Source: the human T2T-CHM13v2.0 reference genome, Homo sapiens. Taken from it: DNA of 64,000 bases. A program made the translations under genes and the position numbers. Positions 15,541 to 23,000 of the stretch are shown here, piece after piece. Where the stretch lies: NCBI RefSeq assembly GCF_009914755.1, contig NC_060929.1; one strand, given 5' to 3'. Each line of letters begins with the position of its first letter. Position 1 is the stretch's first letter. The notes beneath the pieces are model-generated. The model was not told where the DNA came from. It saw only the letters and a list, made by a program, of their open reading frames with translations, and did no database searches.

Positions 15541-17069
15541 GCTACGGATATTTAGAAGATGGAGAGAAGTTATCACCTGAAGAAAATGTGCAGGGTAAGT
15601 TGAGAGACATTGCAAAGAGAAGGAAACAAAAGACTACAAATTCTAAGTAGTTTACATTGTGAAACAGGCATGTCAAATTTACCTTTTTTCCACAGTTCAC
15701 GCATACTTTGGAGATACTGTAGGTTTGGTTTCAGACTGTCACAATAAGTAAGTCATACAACTTTTTAGATTTTCGAGTGCATATAAAACTATGTTTATAC
15801 TATATTGTTGTCTATGAAGCATGTGGTAGAATTATATCTTTAAAAAGTATGTATCTTAATTTAAAAACAATTAATTGCTTAAAAAATACTATTATCTTAG
15901 CCTTTAGCACCTTGCCATATTTTTGCTGTTGCAGGGTCTTACCTCGATGTTGATTCCTGGCAAATGATCAGTGTGTTTGTTGCTGAAGGCCGTGGTGGCT
16001 TTGGCAATTTTTTACCATCAGACAGTGAAGTTGCTGCACCACTGACAATTCCTTTTACAAGAGGTTGCCCTGTAGTACTTAGTGCTGGTTGATAGTATTT
16101 TACCCACAGTAGAACTTCTTTTAAAGTTGGAATCAATCCTCTCAAACCCTGCTATTGCTCTATTATAGTCTATGTAACATTATAAATCTTTTGCTGTCAT
16201 TTCAACAATATTCACAGCATCTTCATCAGAAGTAGATTCCATCTCAAGAAGCCTTTACTCATCCAGCAGAAGCAACTCCTCATCCATTCAAATATTATGA
16301 TAAGATTGCTGCAATTCAGTCACATCTTCAGGCTTCACTTTTAATTTTAGTTCTCTTGCTATTTCCACCACATCTGCAGTTACTTCATCCACTGAGGTGT
16401 TGAACCCTTCAAAGTCATCCATGAGGATTCAAATAAATTTCTTCCAAATTCCTGTTAATATTGATATGTTAGCCTATTCCTATGAACCTTGAATGTTCTT
16501 AATAAATGTAGAATGGTGAATTATTTCCAAGAGATTTTTAATTTACTTTGCCAATATTTATTGGATAAATTCCTGTCTATGGTAGTCATAGCCTTATGAA
16601 ATATATTTCTTAATAATAAGACTTGAAAGTCAAAATTACTCCTTGATCCTTGGGCTGCAAAATGGATATTGTGTGAGCAGGCATAAAAATAGCATTAATC
16701 TCATTGCACATGTCCATCAGAGCTTCTGGAAAAATAGGCGCATTGTCAATGAGCAGTAATATTTTGAAAGAAATATTTTTCTGTACAACAGGTCTCAAAA
16801 GTGGGCTTAAAATATTCAGTAAACCATGCTGTAAACAGATGGGTTGCCATCTAAGCTTTGTTCCTCCATTTATGGAGCACAAGAAGAGTAGACTTAGCAT
16901 CATTCTGAAAGGCTCTATGATTTTCAGAATGTTCAGAATGATAAATGAGTGTTGGCTTTAGTCACCAACTGTAATTGCCCCTAATAAGAGAGTCAGCTTG
17001 TTGTTTAAAACTCTCTTTCTTCTTGAATCTAAAATGCTGACTTTTTTCTGGATGTAACACTCCTGGCAG

Positions 17070-17253
17070 CCAAATATGTCTAGTTATAAAGAGAAGATTT
17101 TGGGGCCAGTTCTTGTGGGTCTGGAGACAGAAACATTGGATAAAGTCATCAAGATCATAAATAACAACCCATATGGAAATGCAACCGACATCCTCACCAC
17201 CAATAGAGCTACAACTTGGAAACATTCCCACTCGTGTGGTGGAAGTCAGAGAA
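17070..17253 (+). pseudogene. ALDH6A1: ALDH6A1 (MMSDH) exon-like remnant inside the BBOF1 retrocopy 3' UTR
   Basis: PNMSSYKEKILGPVLVGLETETLDKVIKIINNNPYGNATDILTTNRAT vs recalled ALDH6A1 [48 protein letters not shown]; preceded by CAG, followed by GTTTGT. Confidence 0.88.
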
Positions 17254-17528
17254 GTTTGTGGACAAACTTTCAGAAGATTCTTAAAGCCATTCACCATCTC
17301 TTCAGTGGAGATAGTAAACAATGATCAGCACTGCATTTTATTTAAAGATTGTCCCTCTAATCTTTCACAATGCTCCATTTCTGACTCAGTAATGAAAGAT
17401 CAGGGGTGGAAAATTGGGTAGAAGGTGGGTATTTAAAAAAGGTCTCTGATGCTATTGTAGTTCCACATGATGTGCTTCTGTCTTTGAGTCCTTTGCTTAA
17501 TATTTGACGTGGATTTATTCTGCTGTAA

Positions 17529-17627
17529 GCGAAAATGAATGCCACTAATCCAGTGCCTTTGCAAATGTTCCCTTTTGCCAGCTTCTGATCTTCCCTCATG
17601 GGAGACACTAATTTCTGTGGCAAACAG
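17529..17627 (+). pseudogene. ALDH6A1: Next ALDH6A1 exon-like remnant (99 bp)
   Basis: MNATNPVPLQMFPFASF*SSLMGDTNFCGKQ vs [31 protein letters not shown]; ends CAG|GTAACT donor. Confidence 0.85.
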
Positions 17628-19887
17628 GTAACTTCTGAGTTAACTTTCTTTCCTTTAAGATACTTTCTTGAACATAATCTGTAGTAAGACTTCTACAAGG
17701 AAATGCCTGCCCACAGCTTCTGTGCAGTTACATGCTGTTCATCTGTGGTTCTCAGAAGGTCCCTGTGTCAGACACTTGTAATTTTTTCTTTCCAAAATAT
17801 TGGGAAACATCATTTCACGAAAAGAGTCTGATAGTGGAATTTGCCAGGTGATGAAAGTTGGATCTTGAAGCTTACTTTCATTCCTCAATTTTTTTTTTTT
17901 CTCCACCGTCAGAGACAACACAGCCTGGAACTAGAGGTCTAGAAATCTGACTAAATTTCCTAGAAACAAAACTGTTTATTTTTGCAAAGAGAAATTTCAT
18001 TACTTTCTCATTCTGCTCCCAGATCAAATCTCCAATATTCATATTTCCTTCAATACTTGTCTATTTCTGTCTCTGTAAGAGCCCGTTTCACTATTGATGC
18101 TGTGCTCTCTGTCATCAATTGTTCTGATTTGGGGATATTCCATTCTTCCTGTAAGTGCTGATCTCATTTGTAATTGAAAGCCCCTTGTGCTTTCAATTTA
18201 AATGCTTCCTGATAAATAGGATCTGTTATTTCACTTGGTGTAGGGCATTTAAAAAAGAACTGTCCAATGCTGTTCTCTCACCTAGCATGTTCTTGGCCAG
18301 CTTCTTCACTCAATTCATTTTTCTTTTGTTCACCTGACTTTGCTACTGCTTGTCAGTTTATACGTAACCTGATTGGTTCTCTATCATTGCTGTTGCTACA
18401 GTTTTAACACTTCAGTCTCAAACTCTGGTCCTATAACTTAGAGCAGTCTCCAACCTTACTACCTTCTTCTGAAGTGTTTGGATTTGTGTTTTCTACTGGG
18501 TAAGCTGCATAATCTTTTCCTTAACCAAGAGCTCATTAATCTCCTTTTGATGTAAAAGGATTTGATTCTATTGCAACTTCTGGGAGCGTTTTTGTAGAGC
18601 ATAAACTTCTTTCAGGTGGTATGCAAGAGCATTCTGGAGATAACTACTCTCTTTAAACACATTTTTTCCATCATTGTTCAATTGCACGACAACTTCATGA
18701 TGGGATCTCATCGCCAGCATTGTCTTTTTTCAGCCTTTTGTTCTAGTCGATGATTTTCTTCAAAAACCATGCCTTCCCAGGTCCTAACAGTCTCCTTATG
18801 TTTCTATTAATTGTTCTTTAAATTCTTCTTTAGAACATCTTATTCTTTCTTGTTTATTGTTTTCAGCTCTGTCTGAATAAGGCTAATTCCTTCGGATTTT
18901 TTAATGGAACTATTCCTCCAGCTTATTTATTTGCACAGTGTACTTTTGTTTCAGTTTTCCTTTCTCCTCCTGGGATTTTTCCTTTATTTCAGTCAGTTGC
19001 TTTTTCAGATTTTCAGTTTTTTCTGGTCCTTGCCTCTGCTCTTGCTTTTCCTTTTCCTTTTGTCCTTTCCCTTTGACAGCTATCTTGGCGTCTCCAGTGG
19101 CCTCACTGTTGTCCTTGACCAGCCACTGACACTCAGGCTGGCTTTTTCTCTAAGAAAAGCTGCATTTAAAGTGAGTAAATGTTCCCTCTGGGTCATTCCC
19201 ATGCATAAAGAGTGCCTCTGCACCTGACATGGCTGGGGCACAGGAGTAAGGTAGATCACACCAGTGCAATGTATGTGCAGTGAGTATGCAAGTGGTACAG
19301 GTGCCTGAGCCTGCCCAGTATAGGTCACACTGGGTGGGCAGTCCTGCTTATCCTTTGAGCTTTGAAACCAGACATTGACTTCTCCTCTCTAGCTATTTAA
19401 GTCCTAGATGGCATCGTCTTTCAATAGAAGACTATTTCATCTCCGTTGAAAATCTGTTGTTTATTGTAGCCACCTTCTTCAATGATCTCAGCTAGATCTC
19501 TGGATAACATGTTGCAGCTTCTACATCAGCACTTACTGCTTCTTCTTGCACTTTTATCTTATGAAAACACTTTTTTTCTTTAAACCTCAAGAACTAATCT
19601 CTGCTAGCTGCAAAGGTCTCCAGATTCCTCATCTCTCTCCGCCTTTCAATAATTGAAGAGAGTTCAAGCTCTGTATCAAGCTTTGGGTTAAGGGAATATT
19701 AAGGACGGTTTGATATTCTATCCACACTACTAAACCTTTCTCCATGTCAGCAATAAGGTTGTTTTGCTCTCTTAACACGTGTGTCTTCACTGAAGGAGAA
19801 CTTTCCTTCAAAAACTTTTTCTTCTCATTCAAAATTTGGTTAACTATTTGGTGCAAGAGGCCTAGTTTTCAGCCTATGTCAGCTTTC

Positions 19888-20090
19888 TTTTTTTAATAAT
19901 TGCAATTTTTATTTTAGATATGAGGGTACCTGTGCTTGTTTGTTACATGGGTATGTTATGTGATGCTGAGGTTTAGATGTCAAGTTCTTGAATGCATGGA
20001 TCATGATGTTTTTAATCTTTGTCAACCCAGTGTTCATCATAGTGCATGATATATGATAGGTATTCAATAAATCTTGGTTAAATTAATGGG
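19888..20090 (-). other. Putative 3' transduced segment: L1PA15-17-like 3' tip (19895-19978, -) plus L2 3' fragment (19981-20088, +)
   Basis: TTTTATTTTAGATATGAGGGTACCTGTGCTTGTTTGTTACATGGGTATGTTATGTGATGCTGAGG, then L2-like AAGTTCTTGAATGCATGGATCATG...CCCAGTG...ATAGGTATTCAATAAATCTTGGTTAAATTAATG; lies between the TSD and the L1PB 3' end. Confidence 0.7.
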
Positions 20091-23000
20091 ATTTTATTTT
20101 ATTTTATTATTATTTCAACAGTTTTGAGGGAACAGGCAGAGTTTGGTTACATGGATAAGTTCTTTAGGTGTGATTTCTGAGATTTCAGTGCATCTATTAC
20201 CCAAGCAGTGTACACTGCACCGAATGCATAGTCTTTTATCCCTCACCACACTCCCAACCTTACCCCCAAGTTCTCAAAGTCCATATATCCTTCTTATGCC
20301 TTTGCATCCAAATATCTTAGCTCCCACTTCCAAGTGAGAACAAATAATGTTTGGTTCTCAATTGCTGAGTTACTTTACTTAGAAAAATGGTCTCCAACTC
20401 CATCCAGGTTGCACGAATGCCATTATTTTATTTCTTTTTTTGGTTGAGTAGTATTTTATGGCATTTATATATCACAAATTCTTTATCCACTCATTGGTTG
20501 ATGGACATTTAGGTTGGTTCCATATTTTTGCAATTGTGAATTGTGCTGCTATAAACCTGTGTGTGCAAGTGTCTTTTTTATATACTGACATCTTTTCCTC
20601 TAGGTAGATATTCACTAGTGGGATTGCTGGATCAACTGGTAGTTCTACTTTTAATTCTTTAAGGAATCTCCACACTCTTTTCCATAGCAGTTGTACAAGT
20701 CTACATTTCCACCAACAGTGTAAGAATGTTTCCATTTCACCACATCCATGCCAACATCTATTACTCTTCGATTTTTAAATTATAGCCATTCTTGCAGGAG
20801 TAAGGTGGTATCACATTGTGGTTTTGATTTTCACTTTTCTTGATAATGATGTTGAACATTTTTTCATGTTTGTTCACCATTTGTATATCTTCTTTTGAGA
20901 ATTGTTATTCATGTCTTTAACCCACTTTTTGATGAGATTTTTTTTTCTGATTTGTTTGAGTTCCTTGTAAATTCTGGATATTAATCTATGTATTAATGCA
21001 AATACATAATTTGCAAATATTTTATCTCACTCTGTGGGTTGTCTGTTTACTCTGCTGATTATTTCTTTTGCTGTGCATCAGCTTTTCAGTTTAATTAAGT
21101 CCCAACTATTTATCTTTGTGTTTGTTAAATTTGCTTTTGGATTCTTGGTCATAACCTCTTTGCCTAAGCCAATGTCTAGCAGAGTTTTTCAGATGTTATC
21201 TTCTATCTTCTATAAGGTGAAAGATGAGGATCCAGTTTCATTATTCTATGTGTGACTTACCAATTATCCCAGCACCATTTGTTGAATAGGGTGTCTTTTC
21301 TGCACTTTATATTATTGTTTTCTTTGTTGAAGATCAGTTGGCTGTAAGTATTTGGCTTTATTTCTGCGCTCTCTATCTGGTTCCATTGATCTACCTGCTT
21401 ATTTTTATACCAATACCATGCTGTTTTGGTAACTATAGACTTGTAGTGTAGTTCGAAGTTGGGTAATGTGATGCCTTCATATTTGTTTTTTTTGCTTAGT
21501 CTTGCTTTGGCTATCTGGGGTCTTTTTTGGTTCCATATAAATTGTAAGATTGTTTATTTCTAGTTCTGTGAAAAATGATAATGGTATTTTGATGGGAGTT
21601 GAATTTATAGATTGCTTTGGCAGTATGGTCATTTTCACAGTATTGATTCTACCCATCCATGAGCATGAGAAGTGTTTCCTTTTGTTTGTGTCATCTATGA
21701 TTACTTTCAGCAACGTTTTATAGCTTTCCTTGTAGATCTTTCACCTCTTGAGTTAGATATATTCCTGAATATTTTATGGTTTTTTTTGCAGGTGTTATAA
21801 AAGGGTTTGAGTTCTTGATTTGATTCTCAGCTTTGTCACTCCTAGTGTATAGCAGTGCTACCAATTTGTGTACATTGATTTTATATCCTAAAGCTTAACT
21901 GAATGCATTTATCAGATCTAGAAGCTTTTTGGATGAGCTTTTAGGGTTCTCTAAGTATAGGATCATATCATTGATGAACAGCCACAGTTTGACTTCCTCT
22001 TTACTGATTTGGATGCCCTTCATTTTTTTTCCCTTTTCTGATTGCTCTGGCTAGGGCATCCAGCACTGTGTTAAATAGAAATGGTGAAAATGGGCATCCT
22101 GTCTTCTTCCAGTTCTCAGGGAAAATGGTTTCAACTTTTCCTTATTCAATATAATGTTGGTTGTTTGTTTGTCATAGATGGCTTTTATTACCTTAAAGCA
22201 TGCCCTTTCTATGATGATTTTGCTGAGGATTTTAATCATAAAGGGATGCTGAATTTCATCAAATTTTTTTTCTGCATCTACTGAGATGATCATATAATTT
22301 TTGTTTTTACCTTTGTTCCTGTGGTATATCACATTTATTGACTTGTGTATGTTAAACCAACCCTGCATTCCTGGTATGAAACCCACCTGATCATGGTGTA
22401 TTATCTTTTTGATATGCTGTTGGATTTGGTTAGCTATTTTTCTGAGGATTTACATCAAAGATATTGGTTTGTAATATTCGTTTTTTGTTATGTCCTTTCC
22501 TAGTTTTGATATTAGGGTGATACTGACTTCATAGAATGATTTAGGGAGGTTCCCCTCTTTCTCTATCTTTTGGAATAGTTTCAGTAGGATGGTACAAATT
22601 TTTCATTGAATGTCTTATAGAATTTAGCTGTGAATCTACCTGGTCCTGGATTTTTATTTGTTGACAATTTATTTTATTACTGTTTCAATCTTCCTACTTT
22701 TTATTTGGTCTATACAGAGTTTCTGTTTCTTCCTGATTTAATCTAGGAGGATTGCGCATTTCTAGGAATTTATCCATCTCCTCTAGCTTTTCTACTTTTG
22801 TGTGTAAAAGTGTTCATAGTAGCCTTGAATGGTCTTTTGCATTTCTATTGGTTGTAATATCTCCAATTTTGTTTCTAATTGAGTGTATTTGGATTTTTGT
22901 CTTCTTTTCTTGGTTAATTTCATTAATGATCTGTTGATTTTGTTTATGTTTTCAAAGAACCAGCTTTTCATATCATCTATCATTTGATTTTTGTTGTTGT

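What the first reader, a model, noticed from the sequence alone, without database searches (positions are those of the whole stretch)
17007..17751. Retrocopy that carries another gene's exons and intron on the opposite strand (ALDH6A1 exon-intron-exon inside a BBOF1 processed pseudogene)
Seen: one TSD-bounded insertion holds an intronless BBOF1 CDS on - and, past its stop codon, two ALDH6A1-like coding blocks on + (17070-17253, 17529-17627). These are separated by ~275 bp of non-coding sequence starting GT, and the second is followed by CAG|GTAACT. Recalled: BBOF1 and ALDH6A1 are convergent, overlapping genes at human 14q24.3. Inference: the retrotransposed BBOF1 mRNA had a last exon running antisense across these ALDH6A1 exons, so an intron was copied through an RNA intermediate. 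The copy would be a fossil of this sense/antisense overlap from some time after Tigger1 inserted.
Basis: partly seen in the sequence, partly recalled or inferred. Interest (0 to 1): 0.8.

Follow-up and report, generated by a model that had tools for sequence, protein, structure and literature searches.

The report
Old BBOF1 retrocopy carrying antisense ALDH6A1 pieces
This is an ancient, dead processed copy of the BBOF1 messenger RNA whose tail carries two exons and an intron of the neighbouring ALDH6A1 gene backwards, because the two parent genes overlap tail to tail on chromosome 14; it is a neat but expected by-product.

Summary
Window 17013-19339 (minus strand) is one L1-type processed pseudogene of BBOF1, nested in a Tigger1 element. 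It has a 16-22 bp target-site duplication (16991-17012 and 19340-19361) and a 12-nt decayed poly(A) remnant.

It aligns to chr14 as 11 colinear intron-less blocks. The last block (17025-17763) matches 719 contiguous bases of chr14 (68272354-68273072, 80% of 710 aligned positions). In the parent this stretch begins at a good splice acceptor and holds the BBOF1 stop codon 12 nt in.

On the opposite strand that same stretch holds parts of the methylmalonate-semialdehyde dehydrogenase gene (ALDH6A1): 46 nt of an intron, its third-last coding exon, a 260-bp GT..AG intron, its second-last coding exon and 134 nt of the next intron. The "intron" is therefore plain exonic 3'UTR for BBOF1.

The ALDH6A1-like frames decay neutrally. 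The copy is about as old as its Tigger1 host, roughly 70-100 Myr by inference. This is an ordinary mechanism and a tidy fossil of an old sense/antisense overlap. In five literature searches I found no description of this copy or of the idea.

The parts
16991..17012 (.). Target-site duplication, copy next to the poly(A) end (16-22 bp; a stretch of the host Tigger1)
   Evidence: Left-flank and right-flank alignments overlap by 10-25 bp in each of 10 of 10 uninterrupted Tigger1 copies tested; 4 of the 10 overlap by 22 bp.
17013..17024 (-). Decayed poly(A) tail remnant (12 nt, purines only on the minus strand)
   Evidence: The copy departs from the parent right after chr14 68273072, and an A/G run follows before the duplication.
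17025..17763 (-). Homolog of the last BBOF1 exon (4 codons, stop homolog at 17752-17754, then 3'UTR)
   Evidence: Contiguous alignment to chr14 68272354-68273072: 570 of 750 columns identical and 569 of 710 aligned positions identical. The parental acceptor is a T-run followed by AG just before 68272354.
17025..17069 (+). Last 46 nt of the ALDH6A1 intron that precedes its third-last coding exon, including the acceptor
   Evidence: 91% of 45 aligned positions identical to chr14 68273027-68273072. The acceptor context is shown.
17070..17253 (+). Homolog of the ALDH6A1 third-last coding exon (60 codons in the parent; 4-nt insertion near its end in the copy)
   Evidence: 83.9% of 180 positions identical to chr14 68272847-68273026. 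Pfam Aldedh E 3.7e-8. TIGR01722 E 7e-12. 20 of 59 codons change the amino acid.
17254..17528 (+). Homolog of the 260-bp ALDH6A1 intron (GT kept, acceptor AG now AA)
   Evidence: 76.4% of 258 positions identical to chr14 68272587-68272846. Searched alone it finds only that place, E 3.1e-28.
17529..17627 (+). Homolog of the ALDH6A1 second-last coding exon (33 codons; one CGA to TGA stop)
   Evidence: 77.8% of 99 positions identical to chr14 68272488-68272586. Frames are shown. The parental exon hits TIGR01722 positions 429-463.
17628..17763 (+). First part of the following ALDH6A1 intron (donor GT kept), ending where the BBOF1 last exon begins
   Evidence: 80.5% of 128 positions identical to chr14 68272354-68272487.
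17764..19154 (-). Intron-less homolog of ten upstream BBOF1 exons (coding part disabled)
   Evidence: Ten further colinear blocks on chr14 68227073-68264901, 73-85% identical. Minus-strand stop-to-stop frames here are at most 79 aa. RefSeq labels 17802-19020 a BBOF1 pseudogene (hub table).
19155..19339 (-). Probable CpG-decayed 5'UTR of the source mRNA
   Evidence: No ordinary match in the genome. A CpG-tolerant local alignment to the CpG island upstream of exon 1 scores 119, against 61.6 +/- 8.0 for 100 shuffles (max 87), 89 for the reversed parent and 70 for the reverse complement.
19340..19361 (.). Target-site duplication, copy at the 5' end of the insert
   Evidence: as for the other copy.

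Best explanation
A spliced, polyadenylated BBOF1 mRNA was reverse-transcribed and inserted by the L1 machinery into a Tigger1 element on chr5, long ago. In the parent locus on chr14, BBOF1 (+ strand) and the methylmalonate-semialdehyde dehydrogenase gene ALDH6A1 (- strand) converge and overlap. The last coding exon of ALDH6A1 sits inside the last BBOF1 intron. The last BBOF1 exon (4 codons, stop, 3'UTR) runs antisense through part of an ALDH6A1 intron, its second-last coding exon, a 260-bp intron, its third-last coding exon and 46 nt of the intron before that. All of this is exonic for BBOF1, so it passed through the RNA intermediate unspliced and now lies on the + strand of the window as an exon-intron-exon fossil. 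Nothing in the copy works: both reading directions are broken and evolve neutrally. Shown here: colinearity, intron loss, junctions, flanking duplication, the overlap in the parent, and decay. Inferred: L1 as the agent, the age, and the 5'UTR assignment.
For: 1. Spliced origin. There are 11 colinear blocks on chr14 + strand with the introns gone. The penultimate/last exon junction in the copy matches the spliced parent exactly at 17764|17763.
2. Contiguity. Window 17025-17763 aligns without a break to chr14 68272354-68273072 (570 of 750 columns; 569 of 710 positions). It is the only other genomic match (2 of 2 places; for the intron alone).
3. The stretch is a real BBOF1 exon. The parent has a T-run plus AG acceptor. 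An open frame through the parental exons ends at a TGA 12 nt into this exon.
4. Opposite-strand content. TIGR01722 (MMSDH) exon hits lie on chr14 minus strand at 8 places between 68272485 and 68280064. These include 68272841-68273032 (positions 368-431) and 68272485-68272589 (429-463). The parental intron is 260 bp, GT..AG. A last coding exon lies at 68268312-68268416, inside the BBOF1 intron.
5. Retroposition marks. A purine-only tail remnant lies at the 3' end. A duplicated 16-22 bp of Tigger1 is shown against 10 of 10 other copies.
6. Neutral decay. pN/pS is 0.75 over 92 codons, 35 of 92 codons change the amino acid, and there is one stop and one 4-nt insertion.
7. Nesting order fits. The host Tigger1 has K2P 0.17 from a majority of 16-17 copies. 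The copy's own drift is about 0.145-0.17 (half of the intron K2P 0.289; pN 0.171).
Against: 1. No canonical AATAAA/ATTAAA lies in the BBOF1 sense between chr14 68272354 and 68273738, so the copy's 3' end at 68273072 is not next to a canonical signal in today's parent. The tail remnant is only 12 nt and impure.
2. The Tigger1 sequence at the nick does not fit the recalled L1 endonuclease preference (T-run then A) well. This was read by eye.
3. A 229-nt coding exon (chr14 68230579-68230807), needed for the parental open frame, is absent from the copy. The source RNA was therefore not the full coding isoform, or the exon was lost later.
4. The 5' 185 nt match the parent only under a CpG-tolerant score.
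5. No chr14 annotation, RNA data or other mammal was available. The present-day use of this last exon is inferred from the acceptor and the reading frame.
Confidence: 0.93

Rival explanations
1. Chimeric retrocopy. L1 reverse transcriptase switched templates between a BBOF1 mRNA and an unspliced ALDH6A1 pre-mRNA, so two RNAs were joined in one insertion.
For: Two genes' sequences lie in one insert bounded by a single duplication. Template-switch chimeras are a known class (recalled).
Against: The ALDH6A1-like part is antisense to the BBOF1 part and exactly colinear with it in the parent genome. It starts at the BBOF1 splice acceptor and holds the BBOF1 stop codon. The tail remnant lies at the end expected for the BBOF1 sense, not the ALDH6A1 sense. 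A template switch would not reproduce genomic colinearity.
Confidence: 0.02
2. DNA-level event. A genomic chr14 fragment with the two ALDH6A1 exons and their intron was duplicated or transduced next to an independent BBOF1 retrocopy.
For: An intron is present between two exons, which usually signals a DNA-based copy.
Against: There is no separate flanking duplication and no extra chr14 DNA. The fragment ends on one side at a BBOF1 exon-exon junction and on the other at a tail remnant plus duplication. Its divergence is in the same range as the rest of the copy: 76-84% identity for these exon and intron parts (91% over the 45-nt intron tail) against 73-85% for the BBOF1 blocks.
Confidence: 0.01
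3. The process is the same, but the source was a minor or aberrant BBOF1 transcript (exon-skipped, cut at a weak proximal poly(A) site). The copy then says little about the regular extent of the sense/antisense overlap at the time.
For: The 229-nt exon is missing, which breaks the frame: 0 open paths without it against 5184 with it. No canonical poly(A) hexamer lies near the copy's 3' end in today's parent.
Against: The overlapping last exon carries the stop codon of the parental open frame, so it belongs to the coding isoform. No canonical hexamer occurs before 68273739, so transcripts using canonical signals would run even further into ALDH6A1 than the copy does.
Confidence: 0.15

Closest known systems
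L1-mediated processed pseudogene (retrocopy) of a protein-coding mRNA
   Same: Introns are lost at all 10 junctions between the 11 aligned exons. There is a tail remnant and a flanking duplication. The copy lies on a different chromosome from the parent and its frame is disabled. RefSeq already labels 17802-19020 a BBOF1 pseudogene.
   Different: The RefSeq span covers 1219 of the 2327 bp I assign to the insert. The unlabelled 3' part holds recognisable exons and an intron of a second gene on the other strand.
Intron-retaining ('semi-processed') retrocopies
   Same: A bona fide GT..AG intron sequence sits inside a retrocopy.
   Different: The intron belongs to the antisense neighbour, not to the retrotransposed transcript. 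No BBOF1 intron is retained between the aligned exons, so no incomplete splicing is implied.
Chimeric retrocopies made by template switching
   Same: Sequences of two genes lie in one insert.
   Different: Here both derive from one contiguous genomic stretch and one RNA.
Processed pseudogenes used as 'genomic fossils' of past transcripts (Shemesh et al. 2006, PNAS 103:1364; seen only as an entry in the reference list of PMC5470649; the paper itself is not held; content recalled)
   Same: The copy records an old transcript structure: splice junctions, a skipped exon, a 3' end.
   Different: What is recorded here is a sense/antisense gene overlap. I found no paper using retrocopies for that purpose in five full-text searches.
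Tail-to-tail overlapping gene pairs / natural antisense transcripts in vertebrates (for example PMC2151771, 'Birth and death of gene overlaps in vertebrates'; passages read)
   Same: The parent pair is a convergent overlap in which one gene's 3' exon covers exons of the other.
   Different: The passages I read treat retroposition as a source of new overlaps, not as a record of old ones.

Membership tests
L1-type processed pseudogene | Parental introns absent, exons joined exactly at splice junctions | tested here: met
   11 colinear blocks spanning 46 kb of chr14 are packed into 2.3 kb. The last junction was checked base by base, and the exon 1 to 66-nt exon junction.
L1-type processed pseudogene | Poly(A) tail at the 3' end of the sense strand | tested here: met
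   A 12-nt A/G run lies at 17013-17024 (minus strand), exactly where similarity to the parent stops. It is short and decayed, as expected at this age.
L1-type processed pseudogene | Target-site duplication flanking the whole insert | tested here: met
   The two flanks overlap by 10-25 bp in 10 of 10 uninterrupted Tigger1 copies.
L1-type processed pseudogene | Insertion at an L1 endonuclease-like site (T-run then A on the nicked strand; motif recalled) | tested here: inconclusive
   The Tigger1 sequence at either candidate boundary fits only loosely. This was read by eye, and the true sequence at the time of insertion is unknown.
L1-type processed pseudogene | Loss of coding capacity / neutral evolution | tested here: met
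   Minus-strand frames are at most 79 aa and the start codon homolog is lost. The ALDH6A1-like frames have pN/pS 0.75, one stop and one frameshift.
Intron-retaining (semi-processed) retrocopy | An intron of the retrotransposed gene itself is kept | tested here: not met
   No BBOF1 intron sequence lies between the blocks. The kept intron lies on the opposite strand inside a BBOF1 exon.
Template-switch chimeric retrocopy | Parts derive from RNAs of separate loci, or are not colinear in the genome | tested here: not met
   The parts are contiguous and colinear in chr14 68272354-68273072.
Methylmalonate-semialdehyde dehydrogenase gene (ALDH6A1) fragments | Similarity to the MMSDH/aldehyde dehydrogenase family at matching model positions in copy and parent | tested here: met
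   TIGR01722 hits window 17064-17237 at positions 368-425 and chr14 68272841-68273032 at positions 368-431. Pfam PF00171 positions are 359-418 and 360-419. Each exon hit is below the whole-protein cut-off, as expected for single exons. The second exon alone (33 aa) gave no Pfam hit but hits TIGR01722 in the parent.
BBOF1 (parent gene identity) | Protein-family or structure match naming BBOF1 | tested here: inconclusive
   The largest parental exon (164 aa) gave only sub-threshold coiled-coil-type Pfam hits and no PDB match. The name rests on the RefSeq pseudogene label supplied by the hub.

The most novel reading that the evidence does not exclude
The copy is a dated snapshot, roughly 70-100 Myr old, showing that an early eutherian germ-line BBOF1 mRNA already ran antisense through the two ALDH6A1 exons that encode model positions 368-463. 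That would make this exon-on-exon overlap an ancient, maintained arrangement rather than recent transcriptional leakage. The same snapshot records a frame-breaking exon-skipped isoform and a proximal non-canonical 3' end. Generalised, retrocopies of 3'-overlapping genes could be mined genome-wide to date sense/antisense overlaps, and would give a neutral yardstick for constraint on doubly used sequence.
Probability: 0.6. Interest if true: 0.35.

Novelty: new member of a known kind. Interest (0 to 1): 0.22.

Why it matters
The mechanism is textbook retroposition. The pseudogene's coding part is already labelled in RefSeq, and nothing suggests function, so the practical weight is small. Three modest points follow.

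1. Annotation. The retrocopy is about twice as long as the labelled span. A similarity-based pipeline could wrongly call 17070-17627 an independent 'ALDH6A1 duplicated pseudogene fragment with intron'.

2. Evolution. The copy gives a time-stamped record that the BBOF1/ALDH6A1 tail-to-tail overlap, including exon-over-exon coverage, is about as old as the Tigger1 host.

3. Method. The case shows that retrocopies can date gene overlaps. I did not find this use in print. GENCODE, RCPedia and RetrogeneDB could not be consulted.

Tried and rejected
- Pfam scans failed because a reference contained a stop codon. I corrected the frames and re-ran.
- Rfam on 16900-19500 gave 0 matches at E up to 1.
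- The largest parental BBOF1 exon gave no PDB sequence match. One search gave no Pfam family above its cut-off for it, so BBOF1 identity could not be confirmed independently of the hub label.
- Ordinary searches for the 5' 185-193 nt found nothing (best E 0.10 within the 80-kb parent). Only the CpG-tolerant alignment placed it.
- My first splice reconstructions of the parental open frame failed (22 aa; 0 open paths). One search then found the 229-nt exon missing from the copy, and one search gave open paths with it. The exact boundaries of two middle exons remain ambiguous: 24 combinations fit the boundaries I fixed by eye, and the six printed give 509-523 aa. I did not settle the protein length.
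- **My notebook entry:** It gives the last junction as about 17776|17777. This is wrong, and searches place it at 17764|17763. In one search the 'intron 11 part' was therefore taken 13 nt too long. One search repeats it correctly with the same identity (80.5% of 128).
- Earlier findings of this scan were not open to the session.
- A literature search failed on a term's syntax and was replaced.
- The Shemesh et al. 2006 paper is not held.
- **Considered and rejected:** template-switch chimera, DNA-level duplication, and a retained BBOF1 intron (see rivals and membership rows).
Full report
**What is there**

The window is human chr5 (T2T) 29202001-29266000. I read 16500-19800 and listed stop-to-stop frames.

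On the + strand, the frame 17058-17324 is open and matches Pfam Aldedh PF00171 (E 3.7e-8, 32.8 bits against a cut-off of 23, profile positions 359-418). The NCBIfam MMSDH model TIGR01722, run over the whole assembly, hits window 17064-17237 (E 7e-12, model positions 368-425).

Window 17529-17627 reads in frame as 33 codons with one stop.

**Parent locus**

Window 17007-17800 has only two places in the 3.1-Gb assembly. One is itself. The other is chr14 68272354-68273072 on the opposite strand, at 76% identity and E 2.9e-144.

The rest of the insert (17740-19343) hits five more chr14 stretches. After fetching 80 kb of chr14, a sensitive blastn gave 11 colinear blocks on the chr14 + strand from 68227073 to 68273072, at 73-85% identity. 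So the window's minus strand is an intron-less copy of a chr14 + strand gene. RefSeq (hub table) calls 17802-19020 a BBOF1 pseudogene.

**The last block**

Window 17763-17025 aligns to chr14 68272354-68273072 without interruption. 570 of 750 alignment columns are identical, and 569 of 710 aligned positions.

In the parent this stretch is preceded by a T-run plus AG. The preceding parental exon ends at 68264928 before GT. The copy shows exactly the spliced join at window 17764|17763.

Read in the parental frame, a TGA follows 12 nt into this exon (chr14 68272363-68272365). Its homolog is window 17752-17754. The finding's interval therefore lies in the 3'UTR part of the last BBOF1 exon.

**What lies on the other strand of that parental exon**

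TIGR01722 finds eight exon-sized hits on the chr14 minus strand between 68272485 and 68280064. Two of them are 68272841-68273032 (model positions 368-431) and 68272485-68272589 (positions 429-463).

From frames and splice signals, the parental exons are 68272847-68273026 (60 codons) and 68272488-68272586 (33 codons). They are separated by a 260-bp GT..AG intron at 68272587-68272846.

A further open piece followed by a stop lies at 68268312-68268416. I found it with a three-residue motif recalled for the C-terminus, and it is the likely last coding exon. It lies inside the 7.4-kb last BBOF1 intron. So the two genes converge and overlap by at least 4.7 kb.

Humans have one MMSDH gene, ALDH6A1 (general knowledge). 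The exon numbers 10 and 11 of 12 are recalled, not checked.

**Segment by segment (copy against parent, ALDH6A1 sense)**

| Segment | Window | Identity | Notes |
|---|---|---|---|
| Preceding intron, last 46 nt | 17025-17069 | 91% of 45 | |
| Third-last coding exon | 17070-17253 | 83.9% of 180 | 4-nt insertion |
| Intron | 17254-17528 | 76.4% of 258 | GT kept, AG now AA |
| Second-last coding exon | 17529-17627 | 77.8% of 99 | CGA to TGA stop |
| Next intron, first part | 17628-17763 | 80.5% of 128 | |

The intron homolog searched alone finds only chr14 68272635-68272846 (E 3.1e-28), beginning at the first intron base.

**Ends of the insert**

Similarity to the parent stops at chr14 68273072, which corresponds to window 17025. 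A 12-nt purine-only run follows on the minus strand (17013-17024), and then Tigger1 sequence.

With flanks included, the genome search returns many Tigger1 copies: 46 matches, with 40 of 2434 candidates scored. I aligned both flanks to 10 uninterrupted copies. In 10 of 10, the left-flank alignment and the right-flank alignment overlap by 10-25 bp, and in 4 of the 10 by 22 bp.

That gives one target-site duplication of 16-22 bp at 16991-17012 and 19340-19361, and an insert of 17013-19339 (2327 bp). The fit of the nick site to the recalled L1 endonuclease preference is loose.

**5' end**

Window 19155-19339 has no ordinary match anywhere and no Rfam match. The parental region upstream of exon 1 is a CpG island, with GC 70% and 83 CpG in 701 nt.

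I ran a local alignment that lets parental CpG match TG or CA. It places the 185 nt colinearly at about chr14 68226856-68227060 with score 119. Controls scored 61.6 +/- 8.0 for 100 shuffles (max 87), 89 for the reversed parent and 70 for the reverse complement. I take it as the decayed 5'UTR. This is suggestive, not proven.

**Decay and age**

Minus-strand frames between the start and stop homologs are at most 79 aa, and the start codon homolog is lost.

In the two ALDH6A1-like blocks, 35 of 92 usable codons change the amino acid. pN is 0.171, pS is 0.228 and the ratio is 0.75. That is what a neutrally drifting copy compared with a conserved parent should give.

The intron K2P is 0.289, or about 0.145 per lineage. 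The host Tigger1 flanks are 0.166-0.170 from a majority of 16-17 other copies. So the insert is no older than its host and not much younger. With a recalled mammalian neutral rate near 2e-9 per site per year, that is roughly 70-100 Myr. This age is an inference.

**Points that do not fit neatly**

- A 229-nt exon (chr14 68230579-68230807) is needed for any open parental frame: 0 open paths without it and 5184 with it. It is absent from the copy, where exon 1 joins the next exon directly. The source RNA was therefore an exon-skipped, frame-broken isoform, or the exon was lost exactly afterwards.
- No AATAAA or ATTAAA occurs in the BBOF1 sense between 68272354 and 68273738. The copy's 3' end thus reflects a non-canonical or since-mutated site. 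It also means that present-day transcripts using canonical signals would extend even further into ALDH6A1.

**Mechanism and comparison**

This is a standard L1-type processed pseudogene. It is not an intron-retaining retrocopy, because no BBOF1 intron is kept. It is not a template-switch chimera or a DNA-level duplicate, because the two parts are colinear in one parental exon and share one duplication.

**Literature**

Five full-text searches found no description of this copy or of retrocopies used to date antisense overlaps. The BBOF1 + ALDH6A1 co-mentions are 10 papers that, judged from their titles and abstract openings, are gene-list studies, mostly livestock GWAS (listing only).

I read passages of two papers:
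- PMC2151771 treats retroposition as a source of overlaps.
- PMC5470649 cites Shemesh et al. 2006 in its reference list. That paper itself is not held, and what I say of its content is recalled.

GENCODE, RCPedia, RetrogeneDB, RNA data and other mammalian genomes were not available.

**Verdict**

The feature is a correct and tidy fossil of an old sense/antisense overlap, but it is an expected consequence of the parent locus architecture and has no sign of function. Interest is low to modest.

Noticed in passing
window 19015-19026 (junction); parent chr14 68230579-68230807: The copy joins BBOF1 exon 1 directly to the 66-nt exon. It lacks a 229-nt parental exon without which the parental frame closes after 22 codons. 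The source mRNA was probably an exon-skipped, frame-broken isoform.
   Followed up: yes
window 19155-19339: The 5' 185 nt of the insert match nothing by ordinary search. They align to the parental CpG island only if CpG to TpG/CpA decay is tolerated. This shows how a CpG-island 5'UTR becomes unrecognisable in an old retrocopy.
   Followed up: yes
window 17013-17030; parent chr14 68273040-68273800: The copy's 3' end is not preceded by a canonical poly(A) hexamer in today's parent. The first AATAAA in the BBOF1 sense lies 667 nt further on, at 68273739.
   Followed up: partly
window 17802-19020 against 17013-19339: The RefSeq pseudogene span covers 1219 of the 2327 bp of the insert. Both UTR homologs, including the ALDH6A1-like pieces, are outside it.
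   Followed up: yes
window about 16300-16990 and 19362-20300: The host is a Tigger1 copy, about 15% diverged (K2P 0.17) from a majority of 16-17 other copies. It is split by the insert.
   Followed up: partly
G000 chr5:77772299-77773654 (+) and chr9:38420043-38421461 (+), outside the window: The MMSDH model also hit two intron-less aldehyde-dehydrogenase-like stretches. One has 2 TAG stops and looks like a processed pseudogene of another ALDH. The other is a fully open 577-aa frame and looks like an intron-less ALDH gene. Neither is ALDH6A1-derived, judging by score.
   Followed up: no
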